Assembly (NCBI GenBank): GCA_036517475.1
Contig: DATDVZ010000010.1
Span: forward strand, 15,338 to 79,337
Origin: Minisyncoccota bacterium
Lineage (GTDB): Bacteria > Patescibacteriota > Minisyncoccia > Phycocordibacterales > Zambryskibacteraceae
Reading direction: 5' to 3'
Length of the DNA: 64,000 nucleotides
Within the stretch, counting starts at the first letter, position 1; the number at the start of each line of letters is the position of its first letter. Below are positions 4,629 through 55,388 of the stretch, one piece after another. The notes under the pieces are model-generated. The model was not told where the DNA came from, ran no database searches, and saw only the letters and a list, made by a program, of their open reading frames with translations. Both the position numbers and the translations under genes were made by a program.

Positions 4629-4657
4629 TTGACAAGTAATTCATAATTTGCTATAAT
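4629..4657 (+). promoter_or_regulatory. sigma70-like promoter (TTGACA-17-TATAAT)
   Basis: ttgaca at 4629-4634, tataat at 4652-4657. Confidence 0.5.
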
Positions 4658-4683
4658 CTAAATAACCCTAACAAAAGGAGTTC

Positions 4684-4833
4684 ATGCATATCAACCGCCG
4701 GAAACTCCGTCAGGAACTCGGGAGTCGCGTCGGTCGTCGACGAGGCACCAAAAGTGGGCCGATGGGCGTCCGAGTTCCTCGCCCTCGCATCCGCCTCGCC
4801 GAGAAAATCGAGCGGATGAAGGTCAAGAGCTGA
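4684..4833 (+). other. GC-rich islet: 49-aa Arg-rich small ORF (MHINRRKLRQELGSRVGRRRGTKSGPMGVRVPRPRIRLAEKIERMKVKS), or alternatively a structured ncRNA
   Basis: Strong SD aaaaggag 3 nt before ATG. About 60% GC in a roughly 35% GC genome. Long internal inverted repeat aggaactcgg...ccgagttcct. Followed by an intrinsic terminator. Confidence 0.3.
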
Positions 4834-4844
4834 TAGTACTGCAC

Positions 4845-4880
4845 GAAAACCGCACAAGGTTTCGTGCGGTTTTGTTTACT
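4845..4880 (+). terminator. rho-independent terminator (aaaaccgcac-loop-gtgcggtttt + T-rich)
   Basis: 10-bp stem, T-run follows. Confidence 0.7.
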
Positions 4881-4883
4881 AGA

Positions 4884-4911
4884 AGCTGAAAGCTAAAAGC
4901 TGTAAGCTAGA
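4884..4911 (+). repeat. four tandem heptamers AGCTNNN (agctgaa agctaaa agctgta agctaga) directly 5' of the xth ATG
   Basis: exact 7-nt phasing of the AGCT core. Confidence 0.6.
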
Positions 4912-4914
4912 GTC

Positions 4915-5682
4915 ATGCGTATTATTTCGTGGAATGTAAATGGATTGCGCGCCTTACACAGAAAAGGTAAGTGGAATGAGATTCTTGATCTTGATCCTGA
5001 TATTCTCTGCCTTCAGGAAATCAAAGCAGAAGTAAAAGATCTTCCAGCAGAAGTACAGAGTCCGCTCAATTTTTATTCATATTTTGACTCTCCAAAAGAA
5101 AAAAAGGGTTACAGCGGAGTTGCCATGTACTCCAAAGTCAAAACAGAGGGTGTTAGTTATGACTTCCACGGCGATAAAGAGGGGCGTCTCATTGAAGCTC
5201 ATTTCAAGGATTTTATTCTTTTTAATGTTTATTTTCCCAACGGAGGGGGTGGCCCGGAAAGACTTAAATACAAATTAGAGTTTTACGAAAAGTTTTTGAA
5301 ATTTATTGAAAAGCACAGAAATCCGCCAACTGGCGGAAAGCCGATAATTTTCTGCGGAGATATAAATACTGCTCACAAGGAAATTGATCTAGCTAGACCA
5401 AAAGAGAATGAAACTAGGACAGGTTTTTTACCGGAGGAAAGAGTATGGATAGATAAAGTAGTAAAAAAAGGTTATGTAGACATTTTCCGTCATCTTAATC
5501 CAGATAGATCGGGTGCATACACTTACTGGGATATGAAAACATTTGCACGCGACAGAAATGTCGGCTGGAGGATAGATTATTTTTTTATTTCGCCAGAATT
5601 GCTCTCAAAAGTTAAAAAGGTTGAAATTTTAGATGATATTTTTGGTTCCGATCACTGTCCTATCAGTTTGGAATTAAATTAA
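4915..5682 (+). CDS. xth: exodeoxyribonuclease III (AP endonuclease)
   Basis: 255 aa; MRIISWNVNGLRA...LCLQE...SDHCP motifs. Confidence 0.9.
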   Translation: MRIISWNVNGLRALHRKGKWNEILDLDPDILCLQEIKAEVKDLPAEVQSPLNFYSYFDSPKEKKGYSGVAMYSKVKTEGVSYDFHGDKEGRLIEAHFKDFILFNVYFPNGGGGPERLKYKLEFYEKFLKFIEKHRNPPTGGKPIIFCGDINTAHKEIDLARPKENETRTGFLPEERVWIDKVVKKGYVDIFRHLNPDRSGAYTYWDMKTFARDRNVGWRIDYFFISPELLSKVKKVEILDDIFGSDHCPISLELN

Positions 5683-9419: not shown

Positions 9420-10115
9420 TTACTGCAGTAATATTAAACTAGACACTGCAATTGCTGCAGTTTCTGATTTTAAAACCACATTTCCAAGCGAATAAATCTT
9501 CACTGAATTTTTATTGAAAAGAAATAGTTCCTTTTCGCTCCAGCCTCCTTCAGGACCAATAAAAACTCCTATTGGTGAGAGGTTATGGATATGTTCAATC
9601 CTGAACTCTTCCCCCTTTGTATGAAAAGCAAAACAAGGAAATTCATGGCTCAACGAATGCTCAAAGTGTTTTATTTCCGTGATCTCCGGAATCAGCGCCT
9701 TTTCTGATTGCTCAGCAGCTTCTTTGAGAATTACGCGAGCTCTGTCAAAATTAATTTCTTTTTTTTCGCTTCGATCAGAAATGATGGGAAAAAATTTTGA
9801 AACACCCAGTTCTGTCCCCTTTTCAATAATCCACTCAAATTTGTCTTTCTTTGTAAGAGAACAGAACAGATAAAGCTCGCGGTTAGGAATATTTTTACTT
9901 TCCTTGCGTGAAACTATTGAAAACATCAGATCACCCCTCTCAAAACTTGAGATCAAAGCGTGATATTCATAACCTGTATTATCTAGGAGTATAACCTGCC
10001 CACCTATATTGAATCTGAAAACGTTTCTCAACTGATTGTATAAAGAAGAATCACGAACAACAATCTCCTTTTTCTTGTCAATTTCTTTTGAAACAAAAAA
10101 ACGATGAAGTCTCAT
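9420..10115 (-). CDS. rsmE: 16S rRNA (uracil1498-N3)-methyltransferase RsmE
   Basis: 231 aa; MRLHRFFV N-term, GPEGGWSEKE SPOUT motif. Confidence 0.8.
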   Translation of the reverse strand: MRLHRFFVSKEIDKKKEIVVRDSSLYNQLRNVFRFNIGGQVILLDNTGYEYHALISSFERGDLMFSIVSRKESKNIPNRELYLFCSLTKKDKFEWIIEKGTELGVSKFFPIISDRSEKKEINFDRARVILKEAAEQSEKALIPEITEIKHFEHSLSHEFPCFAFHTKGEEFRIEHIHNLSPIGVFIGPEGGWSEKELFLFNKNSVKIYSLGNVVLKSETAAIAVSSLILLQ

Positions 10116-10215
10116 ACATTAGCAATTTAGCTATTAGGCATTAGGCTTTAGAATAATATAATTGTTCTGAGAAACAAAATTTTACTTTTAAATATGTTTT
10201 GTGTATTCTTTGTAT

Positions 10216-10236
10216 TGCTAAAAGCTAACAGTTAAA
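10216..10236 (+). repeat. three heptamers tgctaaa agctaac agttaaa upstream of the clpP leader
   Basis: same AGCT-heptamer family as 4884 and 19715. Confidence 0.35.
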
Positions 10237-10246
10237 AACTACTTAT

Positions 10247-10306
10247 ATGTTAATACCTACGGTTACCCCAGTACTGAGCAAAGCTCGCTACGGGGCAAGA
10301 AGTTAA
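10247..10306 (+). other. 19-codon leader ORF (MLIPTVTPVLSKARYGARS) duplicating the first 14 nt of clpP
   Basis: atgttaatacctac is identical to the clpP start. Contains a GC-rich imperfect hairpin ccccagtactgagc/gctcgctacgggg. Confidence 0.4.
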
Positions 10307-10353
10307 GACCGAGTGCATGATAATATAATTACCTGAAATTTAAATATTAAAAT

Positions 10354-10941
10354 ATGTTAATACCTACAGTAATAGAAAAATCCCAGTTCGGAGAGCGAGC
10401 ATATGATATTTACTCGCGTCTACTTAAAGATCGTATTATGTTCTTGGGCGGGTCAATAGATGACGATGTTGCAAATATTGTAATTGCTCAGCTTCTTTTC
10501 CTTGAGAATGAAGACTCTAAAAAAGATATCCATCTCTATATACATTCGCCCGGGGGTAATGTCTATTCTGGCTTAGCTATTTACGATACGATGCAGCATA
10601 TAAAACCCAGTATTGCCACATACTGCATTGGCATCGCTGCTTCGATGGCATCTATTTTGCTTTCTGCCGGCGCAAAAGGGAAAAGATTTGTTCTGCCAAA
10701 TGCTGAGGTTATGATTCACCAACCCCTCGGTGGTGCTGAAGGCCAAGCTTCTGACATAGAAATTTCCGCTCGTCAAATTCTTAAGGCAAAAGCCAGAATT
10801 AATGAAATACTAGCTAAAAATACTGGCCAACCAATATCAAAAATTGAAAAAGATGCTGATAGAGATTTCTTTTTAACTGCTGAAGAGGCAGTCAAATACG
10901 GCATTGTTGATAAGATTCTCAAGCCAAAAAACGGCCACTAA
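10354..10941 (+). CDS. clpP: ATP-dependent Clp protease proteolytic subunit
   Basis: 195 aa; catalytic GIAASMAS (Ser) and MIHQP (His). Confidence 0.92.
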
Positions 10942-13805: not shown

Positions 13806-13879
13806 TGGTGCGGCCAGCGAGAATCGAACTCGCGTCCCGTCCTTGGCAAGGACGTATTCTGCCACTAAACCATGGCCGC
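13806..13879 (-). tRNA. tRNA-Gly (GCC), CCA encoded
   Basis: GCGGCCA acceptor, anticodon stem CGTCC/GGACG, loop TTGCCAA, T-arm GCGAG-TTCGATT-CTCGC. Confidence 0.8.
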
Positions 13880-13926
13880 ATAAAAAAGAATTTTAAAATC
13901 CTATCAAATTAATAGAAATCAAACAA

Positions 13927-14466
13927 TTATTTGGCACCTAAGAAATTTATTATCTTTAATGCACATTTTTGTGGAGATAGGTGCGTATTGTTAATAATAA
14001 TTGGCGGATAAGATTTTAATCCTTGAAAAATTTTCGCTTTCAATTTTTCTTTAAACTTTTTGATTGTATTAGTTTTTGTTTTTTCTTTTCTTGAAGGCAT
14101 TAGAATTCTATTTTTATGCTCCTGCCAATCACACTCTATCCTGAAGAAAAAAATTTCGGCGTTCATTTTTTTTGCTAATTGTACAGATTTTTTCGCAATC
14201 TGCGTTGTTGGATGAAGTCTTATACTCAAAGTACAAATAATACCCCCTACTCCTGACTTAAGAAGCATTTTGAGTATTGCTAGATGCATTTTTCCATTTA
14301 GTAGGTGTGCATTTGGGGTTCCTTGGGGTATGAAATGACAGATCTCTCTGTAAGTAAGATGGTTATCCAACAATGCATATCCAGTCAACTTGCTGATAGC
14401 AAGACCGATCGTAGTTTTACCCACTCCAGGCAAACCAATCAAATAAATTACTCTTTTTCTTCTCAT
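13927..14466 (-). CDS. P-loop NMP/shikimate-kinase-like protein
   Basis: Walker A LIGLPGVGKTTIGLAISKLTGYALLDNHL (shikimate/gluconate kinase-like N-term). ATG at 14466. Confidence 0.5.
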   Translation of the reverse strand: MRRKRVIYLIGLPGVGKTTIGLAISKLTGYALLDNHLTYREICHFIPQGTPNAHLLNGKMHLAILKMLLKSGVGGIICTLSIRLHPTTQIAKKSVQLAKKMNAEIFFFRIECDWQEHKNRILMPSRKEKTKTNTIKKFKEKLKAKIFQGLKSYPPIIINNTHLSPQKCALKIINFLGAK

Positions 14467-14543
14467 TTTATTGCTTAATGCCAATATTTACTCAGGCAAT
14501 CCCAACCAAAGGATAATCAATTATATTTTAACCCTAATTATAT

Positions 14544-14614
14544 TCGGGCTGCCGGGAATTGAACCCGGGCCTTACCCACCCCATGGGCAAATACTACCGT
14601 TATACTACAGCCCG
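14544..14614 (-). tRNA. tRNA-Pro (GGG), no encoded CCA
   Basis: C1:G70 first pair, discriminator A, loop ATGGGGT, T-arm CCGGG-TTCAATT-CCCGG. Confidence 0.75.
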
Positions 14615-14617
14615 TTA

Positions 14618-15130
14618 TTATTCAAAAAAACCCTTCTCTTTGTACTCCTTTACCAATGCATCCGCAGTTTCTTTTTCAAGGTCTATGGGAATCTGGCTTG
14701 CCCACTCTTCAGCCTCTTCCAATTTATCATTTATCAAAAGATATAGAAGTTTTGTGATGGTATTTGGGTGATTCTCAGACTGGTACTCGAGTGCTTTTGC
14801 AGCATGAAACTGTGCTTTTTCTTTATCTTTATATCTCCATGTCGCACAGCTAATTGCATGATGATGCCAAAACCAGAGAATTTCTTGCCAATATTCTTTT
14901 TCTTCTTCCGTAAGAGTTGCTGAATCAACAGCTTCTAAAATTTCTTTTACTTTATTTACTACTAGATTAGGATTGTTATAATCCCAGGAACCATCCTTCA
15001 TGAGTTTCTGATCTTCTTCGCTGTATCTATGCGACAACCCAAGAGGTGTTTTTGCCGCCAGCAGAACATAAGCTGCCCTTAGTGGGCTTCTCTCTATTTC
15101 AAATACTTCATTACCGGTGGAACCTTCCAT
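14618..15130 (-). CDS. hypothetical protein (170 aa) wedged between two tRNA-Pro genes
   Basis: ATG 2 nt after the tRNA-Pro(UGG) 3' end; stop 3 nt before the tRNA-Pro(GGG) 5' end. Confidence 0.4.
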   Translation of the reverse strand: MEGSTGNEVFEIERSPLRAAYVLLAAKTPLGLSHRYSEEDQKLMKDGSWDYNNPNLVVNKVKEILEAVDSATLTEEEKEYWQEILWFWHHHAISCATWRYKDKEKAQFHAAKALEYQSENHPNTITKLLYLLINDKLEEAEEWASQIPIDLEKETADALVKEYKEKGFFE

Positions 15131-15132
15131 TG

Positions 15133-15203
15133 TCGGGGCGCCGAGAATCGAACTCGGCCCTCATGCTCCCAAAGCATGCATACTACCGATATACTACGCC
15201 CCG
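15133..15203 (-). tRNA. tRNA-Pro (UGG), no encoded CCA
   Basis: C1:G pair, anticodon stem CATGC/GCATG, loop TTTGGGA, T-arm CCGAG-TTCGATT-CTCGG. Confidence 0.8.
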
Positions 15204-15252
15204 AATTTCGGATTAATTTACACTGGTCGGCACCTCACTGGTATTCATTCGT

Positions 15253-15323
15253 TCGGGGTGCCGGGAATTGAACCCGATTCTCACGAACCCGAATCGTGTA
15301 TACTACCGGTGTACTACACCCCG
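15253..15323 (-). tRNA. tRNA-Pro (CGG), no encoded CCA
   Basis: C1:G pair, anticodon stem CACGA/TCGTG, loop TTCGGGT. Confidence 0.75.
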
Positions 15324-15370
15324 AAAATAACTTTCAAATCCTATCATAGAGACAGAAGAGCAGCGAATTT

Positions 15371-15754
15371 TTACAAAACAATATTTTCCATGTACTTCAC
15401 CTTAACTTTTTTATTCCCCTCATCAATCACCACTACCGCTACATCAAATTGCCAGTCAACCTCTAAATCTTTTTCAAGTAAATAAGTCTGAATTGTTCTT
15501 GATAACCTTTTCATTTTCCAGGGGTGAATGTTATCCTCCGGATTCCAAGAATCTAATGTTTCACGTGAAAACTCAGAAAAACTGACTGTTTTTACCTCAA
15601 CAAAATGAATTTTCCCGTCAATTTCTGCAATTATGTCAATTTCGCCCCATTTTCTTAGATAATTTCTTTCAATAATATTAGATTTTCTACTCTCAAGAAA
15701 TTTACAGGTAATTTCCTCACCAATATCACCAAATCTTCTTCTCTCGCTTTTCAT
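15371..15754 (-). CDS. YraN-family (UPF0102) endonuclease
   Basis: 127 aa; GDIGEEITCKFLESRKSNIIERNY...GEIDIIAEIDGKIHFVEVKT. Confidence 0.7.
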   Translation of the reverse strand: MKSERRRFGDIGEEITCKFLESRKSNIIERNYLRKWGEIDIIAEIDGKIHFVEVKTVSFSEFSRETLDSWNPEDNIHPWKMKRLSRTIQTYLLEKDLEVDWQFDVAVVVIDEGNKKVKVKYMENIVL

Positions 15755-15970
15755 AATTTAATTGATTTCACGTGAAACTAAAATATTAGTTACTAAGTAA
15801 CTTATTCAAAAATGTTACTTAGAAACACAATTAACTGATCTGTAATTAAATTCCTAATTAAAGGACGTCCTTTATACACATATCCACAGTTTTATCCCCA
15901 ATTCTTTGTCCTTTATATTTTAAATACAACCATACATATTTAAAGAATTGGGATTAAAATAAAGGACATT

Positions 15971-16041
15971 TGCGGGATGGGAGAATCGAACTCCCGACCA
16001 CAGTTTGGAAAACTGTTGTTTTGCCACTAAACTAATCCCGC
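15971..16041 (-). tRNA. tRNA-Gly (UCC), no encoded CCA
   Basis: GCGGGAT acceptor, anticodon stem ACAGT/ACTGT, loop TTTCCAA. Confidence 0.8.
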
Positions 16042-16043
16042 AT

Positions 16044-16115
16044 CGCACCCGTCAGGAATCGAACCCGAAATACGAAGTCCGAAGCTTCGCGTGATATCCG
16101 TTTCACTACGGGTGC
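16044..16115 (-). tRNA. tRNA-Arg (UCG), no encoded CCA
   Basis: GCACCCG acceptor, anticodon stem CGAAG/CTTCG, loop CTTCGGA. 2 nt from tRNA-Gly. Confidence 0.8.
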
Positions 16116-16157
16116 ACAGCTATATCATAACTTCAATTCTCCTAAATTTAAGGCTTA

Positions 16158-17667: not shown

Positions 17668-17761
17668 ATTTAAATCAAAATGTAAATATTAAATTGTAAA
17701 ACTCTGGAATCCCGCGAGGCGGGATACAATAATTTTGATTTTTAAATTTTAATTTTTTATC

Positions 17762-18047
17762 TACAATAAAAAACCGCACTGCGTTGCGGAGCAGAGCGGC
17801 TTCTAGAAAGTACTCATCAGCCAAATTCAAGGGAAACATCAATCGTTCGCAAAAAATAGGTGGGGAACGTGACGATCCTCCCAAGAAAACACCAATGAAC
17901 CTTCCTTAGGTTATAACCATAAAGATCAATGCCCCGGCTTCACTCTTATAAGTTCCGCCGAAACGTCCGATATGATTATAACACGTGTCAAGGACAAAAA
18001 TCAGTAGCTGTGGAAAACTTTGTCCTTTAATTAAATATTGAAATATT
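17762..18047 (-). ncRNA. candidate small RNA: extended -10 promoter (TGTTATAAT) to intrinsic terminator, minus strand
   Basis: minus-strand ttgacacgtgttataat at about 17985-17968; terminator ccgcaacgcagtgcgg+T6 at 17790-17762; no convincing ORF. Confidence 0.25.
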
Positions 18048-19513: not shown

Positions 19514-19714
19514 TTTTTTCTCCTATGTCAAAGAACTACGGGGGTTCTCAAAATCTATTCTAATTGTCCAACTTTGAGATGAATTAATCAAGAATTGACA
19601 ATTTATTAAAATGATTTGAAATTTTAAATTCAAAAATTATCTTGTACAGAAGTTAATCCACAATTATCAGTAGTAAACTGAAATTTATGATAAAATATGA
19701 CTAATTATTCTAAA

Positions 19715-19742
19715 AGCTTACAGCTTGTAGCTAAAAGCTGAC
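19715..19742 (+). repeat. four tandem heptamers AGCTNNN (agcttac agcttgt agctaaa agctgac) ending 5 nt before the ATG of the 19748 gene
   Basis: same family as 4884-4911. Confidence 0.6.
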
Positions 19743-19747
19743 ATAAT

Positions 19748-20275
19748 ATGCCCCCAGAAAATAATTCCAATTCATCATCTAACAAAAAACTGATTACTTT
19801 GGTCGTTGTTTTTGTCGTATTAATCGCATTGGCATTTCTAATGTTAAAAAGTACCCCCCAAACAGTTACTGATACAGGAACATCTGATCAGGTAACCAGG
19901 GAAAGTGTGAAATTTGAACAGGTTAACTTAGAGGGGGTAATAAGTGAAGAAGAAAAATTGCCTTCCGGCTTTCCAAGAGACATCCCTATTGAAACAAAAG
20001 AAATATTTATAAGCGACACGAAAGTTTATACTGACAGAACTCCAAACGTAACTCTTTATACAGTAAATTACAGAACAGACAAAAGTGTTTCCGTAAAATA
20101 TTCGGAATATTTAAACTACATGACTAAGGCTCTATACTCTTTTGAACAAAACGGTAAAGATGAAAAAAATCATGCACTATACGGTTCCAAAAGTGGAAAC
20201 ACACTCTTAGTTGCTATTTCCAACACTGAAGGTAAAACTGTAGTACAAATTGTTTATACAAAGATAGGTAACTAA
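19748..20275 (+). CDS. membrane-anchored hypothetical protein
   Basis: 175 aa, N-terminal TM (LITLVVVFVVLIALAFLML). Confidence 0.35.
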   Translation: MPPENNSNSSSNKKLITLVVVFVVLIALAFLMLKSTPQTVTDTGTSDQVTRESVKFEQVNLEGVISEEEKLPSGFPRDIPIETKEIFISDTKVYTDRTPNVTLYTVNYRTDKSVSVKYSEYLNYMTKALYSFEQNGKDEKNHALYGSKSGNTLLVAISNTEGKTVVQIVYTKIGN

Positions 20276-36118: not shown

Positions 36119-36883
36119 ATGAAAATAACTATTTTTACTGATGGTGCGGCCAGAGGAAATCCAGGTCCCGGCGGATGGGGAGCAATCGTTATTTTTCCAG
36201 TAAGAAAGACACCGATTGCGAATAACAATCGAATAACGAATAAGGAATGGGTGCAAGAACTCGGCGGATCGGAAAAACACACGACCAATAATCGAATGGA
36301 GCTCACTGCAGTTATAAAGGCGCTTGAATTTATATCTAAAAAAATCGTTATTCCTAATTCCTCATTCATAATTCTTCTTTGCACCGATTCCTCCTACGTC
36401 ATGCGTGGTGCAAAGACCTGGGTTCATGATTGGGCTAAAAACAAGTGGAAAACAAAGCAAAAAAAGGATGTTTTGAATAAAGATTTATGGAAAAAATTTT
36501 TAAAAGTCAGTAAAGACTTTAATATTGGATGGAAATTATTGCCTGGACACTCTGGAATTCCCGCAAATGACCGCTGTGACCAAATTGCAACTGCATTTGC
36601 AGATAACAAGAAGCCAAAACTATATTCTGGAATTCTGCAGAATTATGGAATAGATATTCAAGGTCGAATCTTAAGAATCCCTAAAGGTTCGACCTTAATT
36701 TCAAAGAAGAAAAGAAGTTCCTCAAAACCATATTCATACGTCAGTTTAGTCGGTGGAATTGTGCAAACTCACGTCACCTGGGCAGAGTGCGAGAGACGTG
36801 TAAAAGGTGTAAGTAATGCTAAATTTAAAAAATCAATTTCTTTTGAGGACGAGCAATTAATAATTAATAGGTTCAGAGTTTAA
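36119..36883 (+). CDS. rnhA: ribonuclease HI with C-terminal RNA-DNA hybrid-binding (HBD/Cauli_VI-like) domain
   Basis: TIFTDGAARGNPGPGGWG, NNRMELTAV, CTDSSYV, HSGIPANDRCDQ catalytic core, plus C-term YSYVSLVGGIVQTHVTWAECERRVKGVSNAKFKKSISFEDEQ. Confidence 0.75.
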   Translation: MKITIFTDGAARGNPGPGGWGAIVIFPVRKTPIANNNRITNKEWVQELGGSEKHTTNNRMELTAVIKALEFISKKIVIPNSSFIILLCTDSSYVMRGAKTWVHDWAKNKWKTKQKKDVLNKDLWKKFLKVSKDFNIGWKLLPGHSGIPANDRCDQIATAFADNKKPKLYSGILQNYGIDIQGRILRIPKGSTLISKKKRSSSKPYSYVSLVGGIVQTHVTWAECERRVKGVSNAKFKKSISFEDEQLIINRFRV

Positions 36884-38422: not shown

Positions 38423-39213
38423 TCTTCCATAAGAAAAAGTCATTAGGCCAAAATTTCCTTATAAATAAAGGGATTCTGGAGATAATTGCCAAAGAAGCAG
38501 AAATAAAAAAGGGGGAGATTGTAGTTGAAGTGGGCCCAGGTAGTGGGTATCTAACTCAAAGTCTTCTTGAGGCAGGAGCAGTAGTATTTGCGATAGAAAA
38601 AGATAACCGCCTGATACAAATTTTAAATGAAAAATTTACCAAAAAAATAAAAAATAAAAGATTAATTTTGATTAATGATGATATTCTAAAATTTAATTTT
38701 GCAAAATTAGTCAGAAGTAAAAAGTATAAAATTGTTGCAAATATTCCTTATTATATAACTGGTGCCTTGTTCAAAAAAATCTTTTCTCAAAAAAATCTAC
38801 CGAGTCTGGTTGTTCTTACGCTCCAGAAAGAGGTTGCAAAAAGAATAATTGTAATGGATGGTAAAGAAAGCATTTTATCAATTTCAGTTAAAGCATATGG
38901 CAAGCCAAAAATTGTAAAAATTGTCTCACGGGGAAGTTTTTCACCTGTGCCGAGTGTTGATTCTGCGATATTAAAAATTACCGATATCTCAAAAAACTTT
39001 TTTAAGGAATTTCCAGAGGAGAAATTTTTTAGTATTTTACATGCTGGATTTTCTTCAAAAAGAAAATTTTTAATTAGTAATCTTCAAAAAATTGAAAGTA
39101 AAGAGAAATTAGAAAAAATCTTTAACAGACTAAATATAAACAAAAAAATCCGCGCAGAAGATCTGGATTTAAATGAATGGAAAAAATTAACCACCATGCT
39201 TCATGATCTATGA
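38419..39213 (+). CDS. rsmA: 16S rRNA A1518/A1519 dimethyltransferase
   Basis: KSLGQNFLINKGIL, VVEVGPGSGYLT SAM motif. Confidence 0.9.
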   Translation: MIFHKKKSLGQNFLINKGILEIIAKEAEIKKGEIVVEVGPGSGYLTQSLLEAGAVVFAIEKDNRLIQILNEKFTKKIKNKRLILINDDILKFNFAKLVRSKKYKIVANIPYYITGALFKKIFSQKNLPSLVVLTLQKEVAKRIIVMDGKESILSISVKAYGKPKIVKIVSRGSFSPVPSVDSAILKITDISKNFFKEFPEEKFFSILHAGFSSKRKFLISNLQKIESKEKLEKIFNRLNINKKIRAEDLDLNEWKKLTTMLHDL

Positions 39214-39251
39214 TCTATGTTCTATGTTCTATGTTCTATGTTCTATGGTAA
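39196..39251. repeat. heptamer tandem array (atgcttc atgatct x2 atgttct x4 atggtaa) between convergent rsmA and the 39243 gene
   Basis: 8 units; overlaps the TGA of rsmA and the TAG of the minus-strand gene. Confidence 0.85.
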
Positions 39252-39672: not shown

Positions 39673-40701
39673 CTAATTAATTCTTAGTATAACCTTTTGG
39701 GGGTTAAGCGTCACACCGTGGGAGTTTTTTACAAAGAAATACAAATCAATTGACTGGCCCTGAAGATATTTAAATGCTTTTGCAAAATCACTTGCCTTTG
39801 GAAAATCCGAGAGATGAATTTTTATTTCACCCCCATTTGATACAACCCCTCCTAGATTTCCCAGAGACGACCAAACTTCATTTGAAGATTCAAAGTTGTC
39901 CCCTCTTAAAATTATTACATCCCCCAAACTTGAAACAGAGATAACTGAAGTTGAATTAAATGTCGGCGGATTCGTGGGATCTGGGGTCACTGTAAAAAAT
40001 TTCTCTTTAATCTGGTTTCTGCTGTTTCCTCTTTCATTCTCAATCCAGATATTATATTTACCAAGTTCGACGCTTGAAGGAACAATGAATTTCAAATTTT
40101 TACCCTCGCTGCTTTCCAAATTCTCCACAATTTTTTTATCGTCAAAATAAATTGAATTATTTTTTGTAAAATACCAACCTGTTATCTCAACAGTATCTCC
40201 CGGAGCTGCTTCAATTTTTGAAAAATTCAAAACCTGCGGTGGCTGTAAAAATAATTTATTAGTCAGAGGTTGTAAATCTGAATTCTGAAACTTTTGGTTT
40301 TGGTTTTCTGGTAACTGTGTGTTTGTTGTTTGTTGTTTGTTGTTAGTTGTTAGTTCATTTAGCTTTTTTCTCGTTAGTGGCCCCACATAACCAGTGCCTA
40401 CAAAACTTGTGTCATTTCCCACAATTTCTTCCCTGTAAAGATTTTGAAAACGTATCACAGCATCAAGTGTAAGTTTGCCGAAATATGTCGTTTCATTACC
40501 AAATGAGCCGTAGCCATTGTTAGAAACGATAGTCTTTGAATAACTGTTTAATATTTTCTGTAATTGCTTAACGTCTTCGACGTTATCTCCAATTCTTAAA
40601 TTACGGCTAAAAATAAAGTTCTGTTGGGCTTTGGAATCAGGAATCACGAATGAAGAATAAAGAATAAAAATTAAAGTAACCAGTAAAAATCTTCTAAGCA
40701 T
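39673..40701 (-). CDS. secreted protein with N-terminal peptidoglycan-binding-like domain and IPT/TIG-like repeats
   Basis: 342 aa; LRIGDNVEDVKQLQKILNS...GKLTLDAVIRFQ. Contains the TTNNKQQTTNTQ low-complexity stretch. Confidence 0.45.
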   Translation of the reverse strand: MLRRFLLVTLIFILYSSFVIPDSKAQQNFIFSRNLRIGDNVEDVKQLQKILNSYSKTIVSNNGYGSFGNETTYFGKLTLDAVIRFQNLYREEIVGNDTSFVGTGYVGPLTRKKLNELTTNNKQQTTNTQLPENQNQKFQNSDLQPLTNKLFLQPPQVLNFSKIEAAPGDTVEITGWYFTKNNSIYFDDKKIVENLESSEGKNLKFIVPSSVELGKYNIWIENERGNSRNQIKEKFFTVTPDPTNPPTFNSTSVISVSSLGDVIILRGDNFESSNEVWSSLGNLGGVVSNGGEIKIHLSDFPKASDFAKAFKYLQGQSIDLYFFVKNSHGVTLNPQKVILRIN

Positions 40702-45585: not shown

Positions 45586-46335
45586 ATGACTTTCACACAA
45601 CAACAAAAAAAAACTGCCTACATTTCGCTTAACCCAAGTGTTCAGTATTTTATAACTGACCCGGAAAGCAGAGAAATTTCAGAGAAAATTTCAAAACAAT
45701 ACTCACTTGATTTTGATCAGACAGATAATCTTGATGAGGAGATAGACAATACAATTTTAGGCCTCCAAAGTTTTAGAGAAATGATTATTAATCTTAGACA
45801 AAAACTTGGATTATCGGACGATAAAATAATTGAACTTGCTCGTGATCTTAAACAACAAATCTTTGACAAGTTGGATGAAATTAAAAAAGGAGAAATACAA
45901 TATCAAATTCCGGAAACTTTTATTTCGACACCCACACAGTTGAAAGCGAAAATTAACCCACCAACAACCTACAACTCACAACCAACAACTTATAAAGAAC
46001 CCAATCAAACAAATACTAAGCAAAATGCTTTGGAAAGGATGGATGGAGTTTTTAATAAGACAGCGCCGGCGCCGGGGAATTTACCGAGTCAACCAACAAC
46101 CGACAACAAACAACAAACAACAAACTTTCAAATTCCGAAAACTAAAGTAGTGGAGGAATATCATCAGGAATTAAAACCACCAACAACTAACAACCAACAA
46201 CTTACAACAAATAATAGACAACCTAATCAACCTATACAAAAATCACCCATGGAGAGGAAATTGGAGCAAAATCCAAATGTTATGAAAAGTTCATATGGTA
46301 ATAAACCAGATCCTTATCGCGAGTCACCACAATGA
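45586..46335 (+). CDS. Gln/Asn/Thr-rich low-complexity protein
   Basis: 249 aa; contains QLTTNNRQPNQP. Confidence 0.35.
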   Translation: MTFTQQQKKTAYISLNPSVQYFITDPESREISEKISKQYSLDFDQTDNLDEEIDNTILGLQSFREMIINLRQKLGLSDDKIIELARDLKQQIFDKLDEIKKGEIQYQIPETFISTPTQLKAKINPPTTYNSQPTTYKEPNQTNTKQNALERMDGVFNKTAPAPGNLPSQPTTDNKQQTTNFQIPKTKVVEEYHQELKPPTTNNQQLTTNNRQPNQPIQKSPMERKLEQNPNVMKSSYGNKPDPYRESPQ

Positions 46336-46745
46336 TATTCAAATTTCCGCAATATATTGATGTTGAAGACAAAATTTTCGGGCCGCTTACTATAAAGCAG
46401 TTCATTTATCTTCTAGGTGGGGCTGGAATTATCGTCACCATTTTCAGATTCTTGCCGGGTTTTATAGCCTTTTTTCTTGCTATACCAATAATTGCCCTGT
46501 CGCTTTCGCTTGCGTTTTGGAGAGTCAATAATCAACCTTTTATAAGTGTATTGGAATCCTTTATGAAATATGTCTTTGGGGAAAAGCTCTATATATGGAA
46601 AAAAGAAGCAAAAAAAATATCAAAAAAAGAACAAGAATCTATTAATCCACAGGTTTATATTCCAAAAGTTACTGATGGAAACCTTAAAAACTTGAAATGG
46701 AACATTGACGTTAAAAAATCACAGGACATAGAACCTGAGACATAG
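46332..46745 (+). CDS. small 2-TM protein, VirB3-like
   Basis: 137 aa; GPLTIKQFIYLLGGAGIIVTIFRFLPGFIAFFLAIPIIAL. Confidence 0.35.
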   Translation: MIFKFPQYIDVEDKIFGPLTIKQFIYLLGGAGIIVTIFRFLPGFIAFFLAIPIIALSLSLAFWRVNNQPFISVLESFMKYVFGEKLYIWKKEAKKISKKEQESINPQVYIPKVTDGNLKNLKWNIDVKKSQDIEPET

Positions 46746-46824
46746 AACATGGAACATGGGGCATGAGGCATGGAACATAAAACATGGAGCGTAAAACATT
46801 AAACATATAACAAGGAATATGGAA
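46727..46824. repeat. heptamer array, 14 units (catagaa cctgaga catagaa catggaa catgggg catgagg catggaa cataaaa catggag cgtaaaa cattaaa catataa caaggaa tATGgaa)
   Basis: begins inside the last codons of the 46332 gene (TAG in catagaa) and ends with the ATG of the 46819 gene. Confidence 0.85.
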
Positions 46825-47169
46825 AAAAGTTACAATGAGAGGTTGAAAAAATTAATAAATCAGTATGTCCATAAAGTTTATGATTACAGCGTTAACTTTC
46901 CAAAGAATGAAGTATTTGGACTAACTTCTCAACTCAAACGCTCTGCAATGTCTGTCGCATTGAACTATGTCGAGGGATACGCCAGAAGAAGAAAGCTTGT
47001 TTTTAAAAATTTTATTGAAATTTCCTACGGCTCATTGAAAGAAAGTGTTTATTTAGTTGAATTCTCGTATAATAGAAAGTACCTGAATATAAACCAATAT
47101 AAGGAACTAAACAATTTAGCAGAAGAAGTAGCTAAAATGCTTTGGGGAATTATGGATAAGTTAGACTAA
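46819..47169 (+). CDS. four-helix-bundle protein (23S rRNA intervening-sequence protein family)
   Basis: 116 aa; FPKNEVFGLTSQLKRSAMSVALNYVEGYARR...ISYGSLKES. Confidence 0.6.
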   Translation: MEKSYNERLKKLINQYVHKVYDYSVNFPKNEVFGLTSQLKRSAMSVALNYVEGYARRRKLVFKNFIEISYGSLKESVYLVEFSYNRKYLNINQYKELNNLAEEVAKMLWGIMDKLD

Positions 47170-47203
47170 TGGTCTATGTTCTATGATAAATGATCTATGA
47201 CTT
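47169..47203. repeat. heptamer array, 5 units (atggtct atgttct atgataa atgatct ATGactt)
   Basis: the last unit is the start codon of the 47197 gene. Confidence 0.8.
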
Positions 47204-47832
47204 TAAACGCAAAAGCAACACAAGAGTTTGTTCCAATTGAAGAGGTGCGTGACGGCATTATTGTCATGAAAGACAGCGGAATGCGCGCTGTTCTTCTGTG
47301 TTCTTCTCTGAATTTTTCACTCAAATCAGATGATGAGCGAACAGCAACCCTTCTGCAATTTCAGGACTTTTTGAATTCTCTGGATTTTTCGATTCAAATT
47401 TATATTGAGTCCCGCCGGCTTGATATCAGGCCGTATCTTGCGCTGTTGGAGAACCAGAAAAAGAATCAGACAAACAGTCTGATGAAAATACAGATTCAGG
47501 AATATATTGAATTTGTTAAAAGTTTCACTGAACAAACAAATATAATGAAAAAAAGTTTTTATGTTGTCGTGCCGTTTTCTCCAGCGATAATAAGACAAAA
47601 AGGAAACATTCTTTCAAACATATTGCCGTCACAGAAACAAACAAGCGAGAAAGAGTCCGCAAACTTTGAGGAGAGTCGTACCCAAATTGAACAGCGTCTC
47701 TCGGTTGTTGAACAAGGACTCATGCGCTGCGGTATAAGAGTTGCCAGACTCGGTACAGAAGCAATAGTTGAATTGTTCTATAAAATATTTAATCCGGGGG
47801 AAAGCGAAAAACCGATTCAGTTGAAGACATAG
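47197..47832 (+). CDS. VirB4/TraC N-terminal-domain-like protein (N-terminal fragment of a split VirB4)
   Basis: 211 aa; FVPIEEVRDGIIVMKDSGMRAVLLCSSLNFSLKSDDE...RLGTEAIVELFYKIFNP. Confidence 0.5.
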   Translation: MTLNAKATQEFVPIEEVRDGIIVMKDSGMRAVLLCSSLNFSLKSDDERTATLLQFQDFLNSLDFSIQIYIESRRLDIRPYLALLENQKKNQTNSLMKIQIQEYIEFVKSFTEQTNIMKKSFYVVVPFSPAIIRQKGNILSNILPSQKQTSEKESANFEESRTQIEQRLSVVEQGLMRCGIRVARLGTEAIVELFYKIFNPGESEKPIQLKT

Positions 47833-47947
47833 AACATTAAACATGAAACATAGAATATTAGACATAGAACATAAAACACTTGAATTGAAAGTCCGAATTC
47901 AAAGCATGTTTCATGCTTCATGTTCCATGACTAATGATAAATGACCA
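47828..47947. repeat. inverted heptamer array: 8 units in catagaa phase, central gaattgaaagtccgaattc, then 6 units in atgttct phase ending in the ATG at 47941
   Basis: imperfect palindrome about 120 bp. The TAG stop of the upstream gene is inside the first unit. Confidence 0.85.
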
Positions 47948-49807: not shown

Positions 49808-50536
49808 ATGAACCTTGATTCAGATATAAATGAAAATATAGGGAGAGGCCACTCTGCTCTCATCAGAAGTCCGGAAATTGACAGGCAGAGGGCAGAACAG
49901 AAAAAGCGCGCCGGACAAGTTCTTCAGAGTGCCGGTAAAGTCCTATCAAAAACGGGGGAAGGAGCAATAGTGGGAGTTCCAATGCAAGTTGCAGGAACAA
50001 TTTTAAGAAATAGAAACAATAAACAAAGAACGGGGGACGAGGAACAAGAAACAATTGGAACAACAGTGCCAAGTATTACAAGTGAATTTTCAAAGGATTC
50101 TAAAATTGTAAACGAATCGGCACAAAGATCGGAAAAAAGAAATAGAGTGACATTAACAACTACATATCTAATGTTTGGAACGGCTCTCTTTTTTGATTCC
50201 CTGCAATTTGTATTCAGTTTTGTGCCATTTCTTGGCTGGATATTGTCGGGCATCGTTGGTATTTTTGCCTGGTTAACTTTCTATACATGGACCTCAATAA
50301 AGGGCTGGGGCTGGTCAGATACTGTCAAAAAGATTGCAATTAATTGGGCATTGCCTTTGGTAGAAGTTTTTCCCATTATTAACGGCCTGCCACTGTGGAC
50401 ATTGCGAGTAGCAATACAAATTGCAATTATTAAAGCAGAAGATGTCCTATACAACAGTACTCAAGGAAAGGTGGATGTAAAAAATATACTCAATTTCAAA
50501 AGCAAGTATGGGGCAATCTTGAAACCTAGAACATAG
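49808..50536 (+). CDS. membrane protein (3-4 TM in the C-terminal half)
   Basis: 242 aa; stop TAG inside catagaa. Confidence 0.35.
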   Translation: MNLDSDINENIGRGHSALIRSPEIDRQRAEQKKRAGQVLQSAGKVLSKTGEGAIVGVPMQVAGTILRNRNNKQRTGDEEQETIGTTVPSITSEFSKDSKIVNESAQRSEKRNRVTLTTTYLMFGTALFFDSLQFVFSFVPFLGWILSGIVGIFAWLTFYTWTSIKGWGWSDTVKKIAINWALPLVEVFPIINGLPLWTLRVAIQIAIIKAEDVLYNSTQGKVDVKNILNFKSKYGAILKPRT

Positions 50537-50574
50537 AACATGCTTCATGCTCTATGTTTTATGTTCCATGATCA
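50525..50574. repeat. inverted heptamer array (cctagaa catagaa | atgcttc atgctct atgtttt atgttcc atgatca)
   Basis: seen directly. Confidence 0.8.
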
Positions 50575-50592
50575 ACAGGTTATAATTAAAAT

Positions 50593-55202: not shown

Positions 55203-55251
55203 AAATAAACCATTTGTATTTAAATGTATTTAAAAGTTTTAAATCTGGAAA

Positions 55252-55386
55252 TTAAACAGAAATTAACTTTCTGCCTTTTTGCCTTCGTCTCTTTAGTGTT
55301 CGTCGTCCGCCTGAGGATTTTTTTCTTTTAATAAACCCGTGAGCTCGGCTTCTTTTTCTTTTTTTTGGTTGATATGTACGAGACAT
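55252..55386 (-). CDS. rpmH: 50S ribosomal protein L34 (44 aa; not in the ORF track)
   Basis: [44 protein letters not shown]; classic rpmH-rnpA-yidC order. Confidence 0.85.
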
Positions 55387-55388
55387 AG

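What the first reader, a model, noticed from the sequence alone, without database searches (positions are those of the whole stretch)
4884..4911. AGCTNNN heptamer quartets immediately 5' of start codons (xth, clpP leader, 19748 gene)
There are three independent loci. At 4884-4911: agctgaa agctaaa agctgta agctaga, then gtcATG. At 19715-19742: agcttac agcttgt agctaaa agctgac, then ataatATG. At 10216-10236: tgctaaa agctaac agttaaa. The AGCT core recurs with exact 7-nt phase, within 3-10 nt of the ATG, at genes that lack a Shine-Dalgarno. The 11-mer agctgtaagct/agcttacagct is shared between the first two loci in opposite orientation. This looks like a conserved cis element: an operator for a common regulator, an SD-independent translation initiation element, or a contraction/expansion-prone promoter spacer.
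Basis: seen in the sequence. Interest (0 to 1): 0.55.

Follow-up and report, generated by a model that had tools for sequence, protein, structure and literature searches.

The report
AGCT heptamer repeat arrays before genes
The AGCTNNN quartets are real, non-random 7-base tandem repeats. They are two (perhaps three) members of a much larger crop of 7-base repeat arrays that fills the non-coding DNA of this groundwater Paceibacteria (CPR) genome, not a dedicated start-codon signal.

Summary
Two of the three loci hold up. AGCTNNN x4 occurs exactly at 4884-4908 and 19715-19739, against 0.00 expected. The third locus (10216-10236) is a decayed copy, linked to the others only by the shared 9-mer CTAAAAGCT.

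The window comes from a Rifle-aquifer Paceibacteria (CPR) genome. It carries 17 arrays of a 4-base core repeated at period 7 (0.0 expected; other periods give 0-1). These fall into a few unit families and lie in promoters, in leaders, between convergent genes and inside coding linkers.

Missing Shine-Dalgarno sequences are the norm here: only 5 of 56 genes have one.

- **xth:** it looks leaderless. The repeat junction gTA|AGCT gives TAAGCT exactly 6 nt before the ATG, where 36 of 55 orthologues place their -10 box.
- **Gene at 19748:** the array sits in a leader of about 45 nt behind a conserved extended -10. Three orthologues keep that promoter but lack the array.
- **Variation:** copy number does not vary across about 13 sample assemblies.
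- **Elsewhere:** 290 AGCT arrays sampled from metagenomes and viral contigs are mostly intergenic, with no preference for gene starts.

Best reading: slippage-born heptanucleotide repeats, like cyanobacterial STRRs or Beggiatoa TAACTGA repeats, tolerated or co-opted as promoter and leader DNA. This is a new member of a known kind. The conserved core with a variable spacer remains unexplained.

The parts
4884..4911 (+). AGCT heptamer array 1: AGCTGAA AGCTAAA AGCTGTA AGCTAGA. It runs from -31 to -4 relative to the xth ATG.
   Evidence: (TRF period 7, 4.4 copies). Identical in 6 independent contigs.
4903..4908 (+). TAAGCT, the putative -10 hexamer of a leaderless xth promoter. It is formed by the junction of units 3 and 4 and lies 6 nt before the ATG.
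   Evidence: TAnnnT sits exactly 6 nt before the ATG in 36 of 55 xth orthologues (sequences). The window-wide TAnnnT peak is at gaps 6-7. This is inferred; no TSS data.
4915..5682 (+). xth (exodeoxyribonuclease III, 255 aa)
   Evidence: Pfam PF03372, E = 6e-26. Orthologues.
4629..4878 (+). Upstream inserted unit. It has a consensus promoter TTGACA-17-TATAAT (4629-4657), a G+C-rich structured region with an orphan 49-codon ORF (4684-4833, AAGGAG SD), and a hairpin plus U-tract terminator (about 4840-4878). Its end sets the 5' boundary of the xth promoter space.
   Evidence: fold z = -4.4; 12/12 promoter match; no homologue. In orthologues xth follows the integrase gene directly.
19715..19742 (+). 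AGCT heptamer array 2: AGCTTAC AGCTTGT AGCTAAA AGCTGAC, preceded by the partial unit TTCTAAA at 19708-19714. It runs from -33 to -6 relative to the ATG at 19748.
   Evidence: Identical in 10 contigs. Not called by TRF.
19688..19696 (+). Extended -10 promoter element TGaTAAAAT for the 19748 gene. It implies a 5' leader of about 45 nt that contains array 2.
   Evidence: Sequence. The same TGTGATAGAAT / TGTGCTAAAAT element lies 33-40 nt before the ATG in orthologues L097-L099. Inferred.
19748..20275 (+). 175-aa membrane-anchored protein with no known domain. It is the first gene of a cluster with a 1375-aa PKD-repeat protein and pilus/secretion-type genes.
10216..10236 (+). Decayed third array: TGCTAAA AGCTAAC AGTTAAA. 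It lies upstream of a 19-codon duplicate of the clpP 5' end (ATG 10248); the real clpP starts at 10354.
   Evidence: shared 9-mer CTAAAAGCT at 10218-10226; clpP.
10124..10154 (-). Loosely related heptamer array. On the sense (-) strand it reads AAAGCCT AATGCCT AATAGCT AAATTGC. It ends 11 nt before the start of the divergent rsmE-like gene (9420-10115).
   Evidence: (TRF 10133-10151, period 7).
46740..46818 (+). Context example of the wider class: about 11 units of (A/G)CATNNN running up to the ATG of a PF05635 gene. The inverse array TCTATGN lies at 47169-47200 on the gene's other side.
39197..39247 (+). Context example of the wider class: ATGATCT/ATGTTCT x6.4 between the 3' ends of two convergent genes, with no start codon nearby.
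46090..46125 (+). Context example of the wider class: CAACCAA/CAACAAA x5 inside an ORF (45586-46335), encoding a Q/T/N/K-type low-complexity linker.

Best explanation
The AGCTNNN quartets are short heptanucleotide tandem-repeat arrays of one unit family, with consensus AGCTAAA. There are two intact copies and one decayed copy.

They belong to a genome-wide population of period-7 arrays in this Paceibacteria (CPR) genome. These arrays most likely arise by slipped-strand mispairing, with the 7-nt unit preference already described for bacterial long simple sequence repeats and cyanobacterial STRRs. They persist wherever sequence is not tightly constrained.

They end up beside start codons for three reasons:
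- the genome is 88% coding;
- it almost never uses Shine-Dalgarno sites;
- its mRNAs are leaderless or have short leaders.

Almost any intergenic insertion therefore lies within about 40 nt of an ATG.

The arrays are not a shared regulatory signal, but they are part of working DNA:
- **xth:** the array fills the 36 nt between an upstream terminator and the ATG. Its unit junction gTA|AGCT supplies the -10 hexamer (TAAGCT) of a leaderless promoter.
- **Gene at 19748:** the array lies inside the 5' leader behind a conserved extended -10. It makes that leader 11-18 nt longer than in orthologues. The leader stays A-rich and weakly folded, with an unpaired start codon.

Shown: the periodicity, its statistical excess, the family structure, the positions, the absence from orthologues, and the lack of copy-number variation.

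Inferred: the slippage origin, the transcription start sites, and the promoter role of TAAGCT.
For: **Excess at period 7.**
- Arrays of at least 4 copies of a 4-mer core number 17 at period 7 against 0.0 in shuffles. Periods 5, 6 and 8-12 give 0-1.
- Lag-7 self-similarity arrays number 10 against 0.2.
- A scan that allows any 4 invariant columns finds 22 regions at period 7, against 3, 1 and 6 at periods 6, 8 and 9.

**Arrays in every kind of context.** They occur upstream of starts, between convergent genes (39197-39247, 17729-17762, 54049-80), and inside ORFs (40316-59, 45958-46214, 51580-616).

**Unit families recur at several loci** (CATG/ACAT, CAAC, GAAT, AGCT), as in STRR or TAACTGA systems.

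**SD-less and leaderless architecture.**
- SD-like motifs occur in only 5 of 56 genes. TAnnnT peaks 6-7 nt before the ATG.
- 36 of 55 xth orthologues carry TAnnnT exactly 6 nt before the ATG, the register of TAAGCT in the window.
- Orthologues of the 19748 gene keep the extended -10 and an AT-rich leader of 33-40 nt but have no array. The window's gap is 51 nt.

**Absent from relatives.** No AGCT array occurs in about 640 kb of related Parcubacteria loci. Relatives L098 and L099 have no period-7 arrays at all.

**Other tests.**
- The arrays fold weakly (about -8 kcal/mol, z from -0.9 to -1.4) and leave the ATG unpaired.
- 290 AGCT arrays from metagenome and viral contigs are 83% intergenic, with no bias towards starts over stops.

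**Literature.** Heptamers are the most abundant long-SSR class in many bacteria, and a polymerase-slippage explanation has been proposed (as reviewed in PMC4679880 and PMC4692102).
Against: - The AGCT core is far better kept than the 3-nt spacer: 2 of 44 core positions deviate against 12 of 33 spacer positions (Fisher p = 6e-4). Simple neutral decay of a slippage product does not predict this. The test is biased because the loci were picked by their cores.
- The same unit recurs at separate loci, and the 9-mer CTAAAAGCT is 6-fold over-represented with 4 of 6 copies just upstream of ATGs on the sense strand. Random seeding of slippage does not predict this either. It suggests a unit-specific process or selection.
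- Both intact arrays end at nearly the same distance from the ATG (-4 and -6).
- TAAGCT is a poor -10 with no convincing -35 (one search finds no promoter there). xth may instead be read through from the strong upstream promoter, which would put the array in the mRNA.
- No transcription data were available.
- Only 81 kb of the genome could be examined.
Confidence: 0.6

Rival explanations
1. The arrays are periodic binding sites in the 5' leader RNA, or on one DNA strand, for a nucleic-acid-binding protein that reads a 4-nt core every 7 nt. Candidates would be an S1-, cold-shock-, KH- or HutP-like protein. Such a protein would give SD-independent control of translation, as proposed but never shown for the TAACTGA repeats of Beggiatoaceae.
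For: - The core is conserved while the spacer varies.
- The 9-mer CTAAAAGCT is over-represented and lies on the sense strand upstream of ATGs.
- Both intact arrays end 4-6 nt before the ATG.
- The genes lack SD sequences.
- The arrays are weakly structured and A-rich.
- A close literature parallel exists: most TAACTGA sets lie within a few nt of a start codon and without an RBS (PMC4679880).
Against: - xth has the signature of a leaderless gene, with its -10 inside the array, so that array would not be in the mRNA.
- The arrays are absent from all orthologous leaders.
- Lack of an SD is not specific to these genes.
- Other period-7 arrays of the same build lie at 3' ends and in ORFs.
- AGCT arrays elsewhere show no preference for starts.
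- No candidate binding protein was identified.
Confidence: 0.2
2. The arrays are contingency loci. Gain or loss of 7-nt units would change promoter spacing or leader length and so switch xth and the 19748 surface-protein operon on and off. Known examples are the hmw ATCTTTC repeats of H. influenzae and the ctxAB TTTTGAT repeats.
For: - The arrays lie in promoter or leader DNA.
- The 19748 gene heads a cell-surface, pilus-like cluster.
- Heptamer repeats in promoters and 5' UTRs are proven switches in other bacteria (PMC12721329; bioRxiv 10.1101/2021.05.14.444153).
Against: - There are only four units and their spacers differ, so few registers are available for misalignment.
- Sequences are identical across 6 and 10 independent contigs from about 13 sample assemblies.
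- xth is a housekeeping repair gene.
Confidence: 0.06
3. The arrays are operators: direct-repeat DNA sites for one transcription factor that co-regulates xth, the 19748 operon and clpP.
For: - A shared motif occurs at three upstream regions.
- Three units span 21 bp, which is two helical turns.
Against: - There is no functional link between the three genes.
- The motif is absent from orthologous promoters.
- A 7-bp spacing puts successive sites on different faces of the helix.
- The arrays sit in different positions relative to the inferred promoters: over the -10 at xth, and at about +13 to +40 at the 19748 gene.
- Many other unit families have the same architecture.
Confidence: 0.05
4. The arrays are clusters of a palindromic methylation or restriction target (AGCT, the AluI-type site) that act as epigenetic marks or as decoys.
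For: The AGCT and CATG cores of two array families are palindromic tetramers.
Against: - AGCT and CATG are neither avoided nor enriched overall: 196 observed against 185 expected, and 138 against 145.
- Other array families have non-palindromic cores (CAAC, GAAT).
- No methyltransferase was linked to the arrays.
Confidence: 0.03
5. The pattern is chance similarity in AT-rich intergenic DNA.
For: Locus 3 taken alone is at chance level.
Against: - The quartet pattern occurs twice against 0.00 expected.
- Period-7 arrays number 17 against 0.0 expected.
Confidence: 0.01

Closest known systems
Heptanucleotide 'long simple sequence repeats' of prokaryotes (Mrazek, Guo and Shah 2007, as summarised in PMC4679880 and PMC4692102)
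   Same: Both are head-to-tail 7-nt units, a strong excess specific to period 7, mostly intergenic, and lineage-specific in abundance. Replication slippage is the proposed source.
   Different: The AGCT arrays are short (4 units) and imperfect, with an invariant 4-nt core and a variable 3-nt spacer. They are not near-perfect repeats. The host is a small-genome CPR bacterium; I found no paper on such repeats in CPR in the searchable library.
Cyanobacterial STRR sequences (short tandemly repeated repetitive heptamers of Calothrix, Nostoc and Anabaena; cited in PMC4692102)
   Same: In both, a handful of heptamer unit families each recur at many intergenic loci. Some form inverted pairs, and their function is unknown.
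   Different: The phylum and the unit sequences differ. The STRR units I recall from memory (CCCCAAT, TTGGTCA, CAACAGT) and the G-rich GGGGA(T/C)T repeats studied in PMC4692102 contrast with AGCTAAA, ACATNGA, CAACAAA and GAATAAN here.
TAACTGA direct repeats of marine Beggiatoaceae (MacGregor 2015, PMC4679880)
   Same: Both are heptamer direct repeats of 2-6 copies, sometimes split by related 7-mers. They lie in forward orientation within a few nt upstream of start codons that lack an RBS. They contain stop codons. No binding factor is known.
   Different: In Beggiatoa one exact unit occurs in 169 sets with a clear preference for start-proximal positions. Here there are only 2-3 AGCT arrays in 81 kb, alongside other unit families at 3' ends and inside ORFs. 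At xth the array overlaps the -10 box of a leaderless promoter.
Phase-variable heptamer repeats in promoters and 5' UTRs: H. influenzae hmw (ATCTTTC)n (PMC12721329) and V. cholerae ctxAB (TTTTGAT)n (bioRxiv 10.1101/2021.05.14.444153)
   Same: Both are 7-nt tandem units between the promoter and the start codon that can set expression level.
   Different: The known switches are perfect repeats with strain-to-strain variation in copy number. For hmw there is also an RNase III-processed hairpin. Here the units are imperfect, the copy number is invariant and no hairpin forms.
Nostoc PCC 7120 TTTTGAA heptamer repeats near start codons of recF and recO (bioRxiv 10.1101/2022.06.06.494920)
   Same: Both are contiguous heptamers next to or overlapping promoters and start codons of DNA-repair genes with poor SD sequences. 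Deleting the Nostoc repeats changed reporter output.
   Different: The unit and the organism differ. The mechanism is unresolved in Nostoc as well.

Membership tests
Heptanucleotide simple sequence repeat (LSSR-type) | Head-to-tail copies with a 7-nt period, longer than chance allows | tested here: met
   The AGCTN3 x4 pattern occurs twice against 0.00 expected. TRF gives period 7 and 4.4 copies at locus 1.
Heptanucleotide simple sequence repeat (LSSR-type) | Genome shows an excess specific to period 7 | tested here: met
   17 arrays at period 7 against 0-1 at periods 5, 6 and 8-12, with 0.0 in shuffles.
Heptanucleotide simple sequence repeat (LSSR-type) | High identity between units (perfect or near-perfect repeats) | tested here: not met
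   Only the 4-nt core is invariant. All four spacers differ at each locus. TRF gives 75% matches at locus 1 and does not call locus 2.
STRR-like dispersed heptamer family | The same unit recurs at several separate loci | tested here: met
   The unit AGCTAAA and the 9-mer CTAAAAGCT occur at three loci. The CATG, CAAC and GAAT families each occur at 3-7 loci.
STRR-like dispersed heptamer family | Membership in the cyanobacterial STRR sequence classes | tested here: not met
   The organism is a Paceibacteria/Parcubacteria CPR bacterium. The units found here differ from the published STRR and G-rich units.
TAACTGA-type start-codon-proximal repeats | Forward orientation, ending within a few nt of a start codon that has no RBS | tested here: met
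   The arrays end 3 and 5 nt before the ATG on the sense strand, and neither gene has an SD.
TAACTGA-type start-codon-proximal repeats | Genome-wide preference of the unit for start-proximal positions | tested here: inconclusive
   Only 81 kb of the genome was available, holding 2-3 arrays. AGCT arrays in other organisms show no start preference. Other unit families in the window occupy 3' ends and ORFs.
Phase-variable (contingency) SSR | Copy-number polymorphism within or between populations | tested here: not met
   Sequences are 100% identical across 6 and 10 contigs from about 13 assemblies. Read-level heterogeneity was not tested.
Transcription-factor operator / conserved cis-regulatory element | Conservation at orthologous promoters in relatives | tested here: not met
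   0 of 55 xth orthologue upstream regions and 0 of 3 upstream regions of the 19748-gene orthologues carry it. The closest relatives share only 64-69% protein identity.
Transcription-factor operator / conserved cis-regulatory element | A cognate binding protein | not testable with these tools
   No candidate was identified. A binding experiment would be needed.
Structured cis-regulatory RNA (riboswitch or leader) | A stable or covarying secondary structure, or an Rfam match | tested here: not met
   No Rfam hit at gathering threshold. For the xth region, only a sub-threshold chance-level hit appeared at E up to 10. Folds are about -8 kcal/mol with z from -0.9 to -1.4.

The most novel reading that the evidence does not exclude
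Heptamer arrays with an invariant 4-nt core (AGCT, or CATG) and a free 3-nt spacer are a cross-phylum class of intergenic element. They are made or read by a conserved machine with a 7-nt step. That machine could be a periodic single-strand-binding protein or a dedicated repeat-generating activity. In this SD-less CPR genome the AGCTAAA family would serve as a start-codon-proximal signal for initiation or its control. The core-versus-spacer asymmetry, the recurrence of identical units at separate loci, and the abundance of AGCT-cored arrays in unrelated metagenomic and viral contigs (often between a terminator and the next gene) are all compatible with this and are not explained by plain slippage.
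Probability: 0.1. Interest if true: 0.65.

Novelty: new member of a known kind. Interest (0 to 1): 0.3.

Why it matters
If the main reading holds, the finding is a clean example from a candidate-phyla-radiation genome of the still unexplained bacterial preference for 7-nt tandem repeats. It shows such repeats being absorbed into working promoter and leader DNA: the xth -10 box is built from a repeat junction.

It also documents that this lineage starts most genes without Shine-Dalgarno sites and often without leaders. That matters for gene calling and for expression studies in CPR bacteria.

The wider puzzle remains open and would become testable with the complete genome and the Rifle metatranscriptomes. 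The puzzle is why a 4-nt core is kept while the spacer drifts, and why identical units appear at unlinked loci. The finding does not reveal a new regulatory system by itself.

Tried and rejected
- **Cyanobacterial origin (STRR proper).** Rejected. Exact-protein look-ups and orthologue searches place the window in a Rifle-aquifer Paceibacteria genome.
- **Copy-number variation.** Aligned 6 and 10 contigs. There is none.
- **Closer relatives for conservation tests.** None exist above 69% (xth) or 64% (19748 protein) identity among 5.8 billion proteins, so intergenic alignment was impossible. Only presence or absence could be scored.
- **Known RNA family or stable RNA structure.** None found.
- **Restriction or methylation-site avoidance for AGCT and CATG.** None.
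No control scans were run.
- **AGCT arrays as flanks of PF05635 (23S rRNA IVP) genes, as the CATG arrays are in the window.** Only 4 such genes occur in 1.64 Mb of array-bearing loci, 3 of them within 100 nt of an array. This is too weak.
- **Extending the genome.** Two flanks added 17 kb and no further AGCT arrays.
- **Test for contiguity of variable columns.** 10 of 22 against 20% expected. My window choice mixes array edges, so I give it little weight.
- **The 49-codon ORF upstream of xth.** No Pfam family and no homologue.
- **Literature on leaderless or SD-less CPR genes and on heptamers in CPR.** Nothing relevant in the held library.
Full report
**1. The observation**

Reading the three loci confirms the first two exactly.
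- 4884-4911 is AGCTGAA AGCTAAA AGCTGTA AGCTAGA, followed by gtc and ATG (4915).
- 19715-19742 is AGCTTAC AGCTTGT AGCTAAA AGCTGAC, followed by ataat and ATG (19748).

The pattern AGCTN3AGCTN3AGCTN3AGCT occurs twice in 64 kb. It never appears in 100 dinucleotide-preserving shuffles. All six AGCTN3AGCT pairs in the window lie in these two arrays (0.68 expected).

The third locus (10216-10236, TGCTAAA AGCTAAC AGTTAAA) has one exact core and matches only at two mismatches, where chance gives about two hits. It does carry the 9-mer CTAAAAGCT. That 9-mer occurs six times in the window (0.99 expected; 0 of 100 shuffles reach six). I therefore read locus 3 as a decayed (AGCTAAA)n array of the same family.

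The ATG after locus 3 (10248) is not clpP. It opens a 19-codon fragment duplicating the first 14 nt of clpP, which starts at 10354.

The 'shared 11-mer in opposite orientation' follows almost automatically from palindromic cores (p about 0.13).

**2. The organism**

Exact-sequence look-ups of the xth and 19748 proteins return contigs from the Rifle aquifer metagenomes, including the 157.7-kb ERZ28563803 scaffold_193.

The best xth relatives among the species-representative genomes searched are all Patescibacteria/Parcubacteria (Paceibacterota) at 67% identity or less. In a 5.8-billion-protein collection nothing is closer than 69%.

My first guess, a cyanobacterium with classical STRR repeats, was wrong.

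**3. The arrays are part of a much larger period-7 population**

TRF lists dozens of period-7 rows. Three separate counts give the same picture:
- Self-similarity arrays at lag 7: 10 against 0.2 in shuffles.
- Arrays of at least 4 copies of an exact 4-mer core: 17 at period 7 against 0.0 expected, and 0-1 at periods 5, 6 and 8-12.
- A scan allowing any four invariant columns: 22 regions at period 7 against 3, 1 and 6 at periods 6, 8 and 9.

The arrays fall into a few unit families:
- (A/G)CATNNN and its complement, about 7 loci;
- CAAC/ACAA, about 6 loci;
- GAATNNN, 3 loci;
- AGCTNNN, 2-3 loci;
- singles.

Their positions are varied:
- directly upstream of starts (xth, 19748, 46819, 47197, 47941, 49808, 50593);
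- between convergent genes (39197-39247, 17729-62, 54049-80);
- inside ORFs as Q/T/N/K-type linkers (40316-59, 45958-46214, 51580-616).

Most sit in a type-IV-secretion-like cluster at 40.8-54 kb.

Another 17 kb of the same genome adds two more arrays but no AGCT array. The two more distant relatives, L098 and L099 (32 kb), have no period-7 arrays. About 606 kb of other Parcubacteria loci have roughly six-fold fewer per base.

**4. Why the arrays sit beside SD-less start codons**

The window is 88% coding. Only 5 of 56 genes of at least 100 codons have an SD-like motif. TAnnnT hexamers pile up 6-7 nt before the ATG in 14 of 56 genes, often with an upstream TG, which is the signature of leaderless mRNAs. 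The absence of an SD therefore does not mark these genes out.

*xth.* The comparison with orthologues is sharp. Of 55 orthologous loci whose match starts at an ATG, 36 have TAnnnT exactly 6 nt upstream (typically TATACT or TATAAT), and 47 have it at gaps 6-8. In the window the junction of units 3 and 4 reads gTA|AGCT, giving TAAGCT (4903-4908) followed by agagtc and ATG. That is the same register.

In most orthologues xth follows a xerC/D-like integrase gene by a few tens of nt. In the window a separate unit of about 260 nt has been inserted between them. It has these parts:
- a 12/12 consensus promoter (4629-4657);
- a G+C-rich, strongly folding segment (z = -4.4);
- an orphan 49-codon ORF;
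- a hairpin plus U-tract (about 4840-4878).

The AGCT array fills the 36 nt left between that hairpin and the ATG. So the array most probably is the xth core promoter, not part of its mRNA. This is inferred. TAAGCT is a weak -10, and the simple promoter scan finds no -35/-10 pair there.

*Gene at 19748.* An extended -10 (TGaTAAAAT, 19688-19696) lies 51 nt before the ATG. Three orthologues (64%, 51% and 49% identity) keep the same element (TGTGATAGAAT or TGTGCTAAAAT) 33-40 nt before their ATG. Their leaders are AT-rich and SD-less and hold no AGCT heptamers. Here the array lies inside the leader and accounts for the extra 11-18 nt.

The two intact arrays thus occupy different places relative to transcription. 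That argues against one shared mechanism.

**5. Other tests**

- No AGCT x3 pattern occurs in any of the 83 loci fetched up to that point from other genomes.
- The repeat regions are identical in 6 (xth) and 10 (19748) contigs from about 13 sample assemblies, so there is no sign of phase variation at consensus level.
- As RNA the arrays form only nested 4-bp AGCU:AGCU pairings (about -8 kcal/mol, z from -0.9 to -1.4) and leave the ATG unpaired.
- No Rfam family matches.
- AGCT and CATG are not avoided in the window.

**6. AGCT arrays elsewhere**

They occur at 36-70% G+C, usually as true heptamer arrays with a kept core. Often they form inverted pairs that would make long hairpins. Sometimes they lie between a terminator and the next gene's SD and ATG (L225, L248). 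In L188 the array lies 6 nt before an ATG.

Over 290 arrays, 83% are intergenic by rough ORF calls. There is no start preference:
- 42 lie in divergent and 42 in convergent spacers;
- in co-directional spacers, 51 are nearer the stop and 43 nearer the start.

**7. What is not explained**

The core is far better conserved than the spacer: 2 of 44 positions deviate against 12 of 33 (Fisher p = 6e-4; biased by how the loci were found). Identical units also recur at unlinked loci.

Plain slippage followed by neutral decay predicts neither. The same puzzle exists for STRRs and TAACTGA repeats.

**8. Comparison with the literature**

- Heptamers are the most abundant long-SSR class in many bacteria, and a polymerase-slippage explanation has been proposed (Mrazek et al. 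2007, as summarised in PMC4679880 and PMC4692102).
- The TAACTGA repeats of Beggiatoaceae lie mostly within a few nt upstream of RBS-less start codons. They are proposed, without proof, to act in translation (PMC4679880).
- Nostoc TTTTGAA heptamers near the recF and recO starts affect reporter output (bioRxiv 10.1101/2022.06.06.494920).
- The hmw ATCTTTC and ctxAB TTTTGAT repeats are proven expression switches (PMC12721329; bioRxiv 10.1101/2021.05.14.444153).
- I found no paper on such repeats, or on leaderless or SD-less initiation, in CPR bacteria in the searchable library.

**9. Verdict**

- The interpretation as a dedicated start-codon or operator element is not supported. The 'promoter spacer' idea is close to what happens at xth.
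- Best explanation (confidence about 0.6): heptanucleotide repeat arrays of slippage origin, tolerated in and co-opted as promoter and leader DNA in a compact, SD-less, largely leaderless genome.
- Main rival (about 0.2): a periodic protein-binding element of the TAACTGA type.
- Novelty: a new member of a known kind.
- Interest: 0.3.

Noticed in passing
window 46740-47200; 47827-47936; 50523-50575; 39197-39247: Heptamer arrays of the CATG family come as inverted pairs that would fold into long hairpins between genes of a type-IV-secretion-like cluster. The forward form is ACATAGA/ACATGGA and the reverse form is TCTATGT/CATGTTC. One pair brackets a PF05635 '23S rRNA intervening sequence protein' gene (46819-47169). 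That recalls the stem that flanks such genes inside rRNA intervening sequences.
   Followed up: partly
window 40320-40355, 45958-46214, 51580-51616: CAAC/ACAA-type heptamer arrays lie inside ORFs. One ORF is a peptidoglycan-binding/TIG protein, one has no known domain, and one carries a T4SS-pilin domain. A 7-nt unit repeated three or more times encodes the same Q/T/N/K heptapeptide in all three frames. Gain or loss of one unit would frameshift everything downstream, so these are possible phase-variation sites.
   Followed up: no
window 4629-4878: A G+C-rich segment (about 60% against 38% for the genome) is strongly structured (fold z = -4.4). It has a perfect TTGACA-17-TATAAT promoter, an AAGGAG SD, an Arg-rich 49-codon ORF with no homologue anywhere, and a terminator hairpin. 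It is inserted between the integrase gene and xth. It could be a novel small RNA or a foreign cassette. No Rfam family matches.
   Followed up: partly
whole window (gene starts); xth orthologue loci L017-L096: The genome almost lacks Shine-Dalgarno sites (5 of 56 genes). Many genes have TGnTAnnnT ending 6-7 nt before the ATG, implying widespread leaderless mRNAs. The same holds for xth in 36-47 of 55 Parcubacteria genomes. I found no paper describing this for CPR bacteria in the held library.
   Followed up: partly
window 10248-10370: The first 14 nt of clpP (ATGTTAATACCTAC) occur twice, 106 nt apart. The upstream copy opens a 19-codon ORF. The intervening segment carries its own TGATAATATAAT promoter-like box. 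This looks like an insertion into, or duplication of, the clpP 5' end.
   Followed up: no
window 55203-55624 (arrays at 55397-55435): The rnpA-dnaA intergenic region is the likely replication origin, flanked by yidC, rnpA, dnaA and dnaN. It contains period-7/14 repeats (AACTTAT AACTTAC AACTAGT AACT).
   Followed up: no
L097 3777-3813 (relative at 64% identity) and window 36219-36248, 40633-40675: A related genome carries an ATGAATA/CGAATAA heptamer array of the same unit family as two arrays in the window, at a non-orthologous site. An IS200/IS605-type Y1 transposase gene lies on the same contig. Unit families may therefore be shared between related genomes.
   Followed up: no
L225, L258, L262, L248, L281 (viral contigs, 58-66% G+C); L101, L102, L164, L218 (metagenome contigs): Some high-G+C contigs carry 3-5 AGCT-cored heptamer arrays each (units AGCTAGN, AGCTGAN, AGCTNTC). 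These typically lie between terminator-like hairpins and the next SD and ATG. Others form inverted arrays that make long perfect hairpins centred on an AGCT core.
   Followed up: partly
window 10124-10154 (- strand sense): The divergent rsmE-like gene (9420-10115) also has a heptamer array ending 11 nt before its ATG. On its sense strand it reads AAAGCCT AATGCCT AATAGCT AAATTGC and includes one AGCTAAA unit. The 10116-10353 spacer therefore has arrays facing both flanking genes.
   Followed up: no
window 13806-16116: Six tRNA genes on the minus strand are interleaved with short ORFs: Gly-GCC, Pro-GGG, Pro-UGG, Pro-CGG, Gly-UCC and Arg-UCG. All three Pro isoacceptors lie within 0.8 kb.
   Followed up: no
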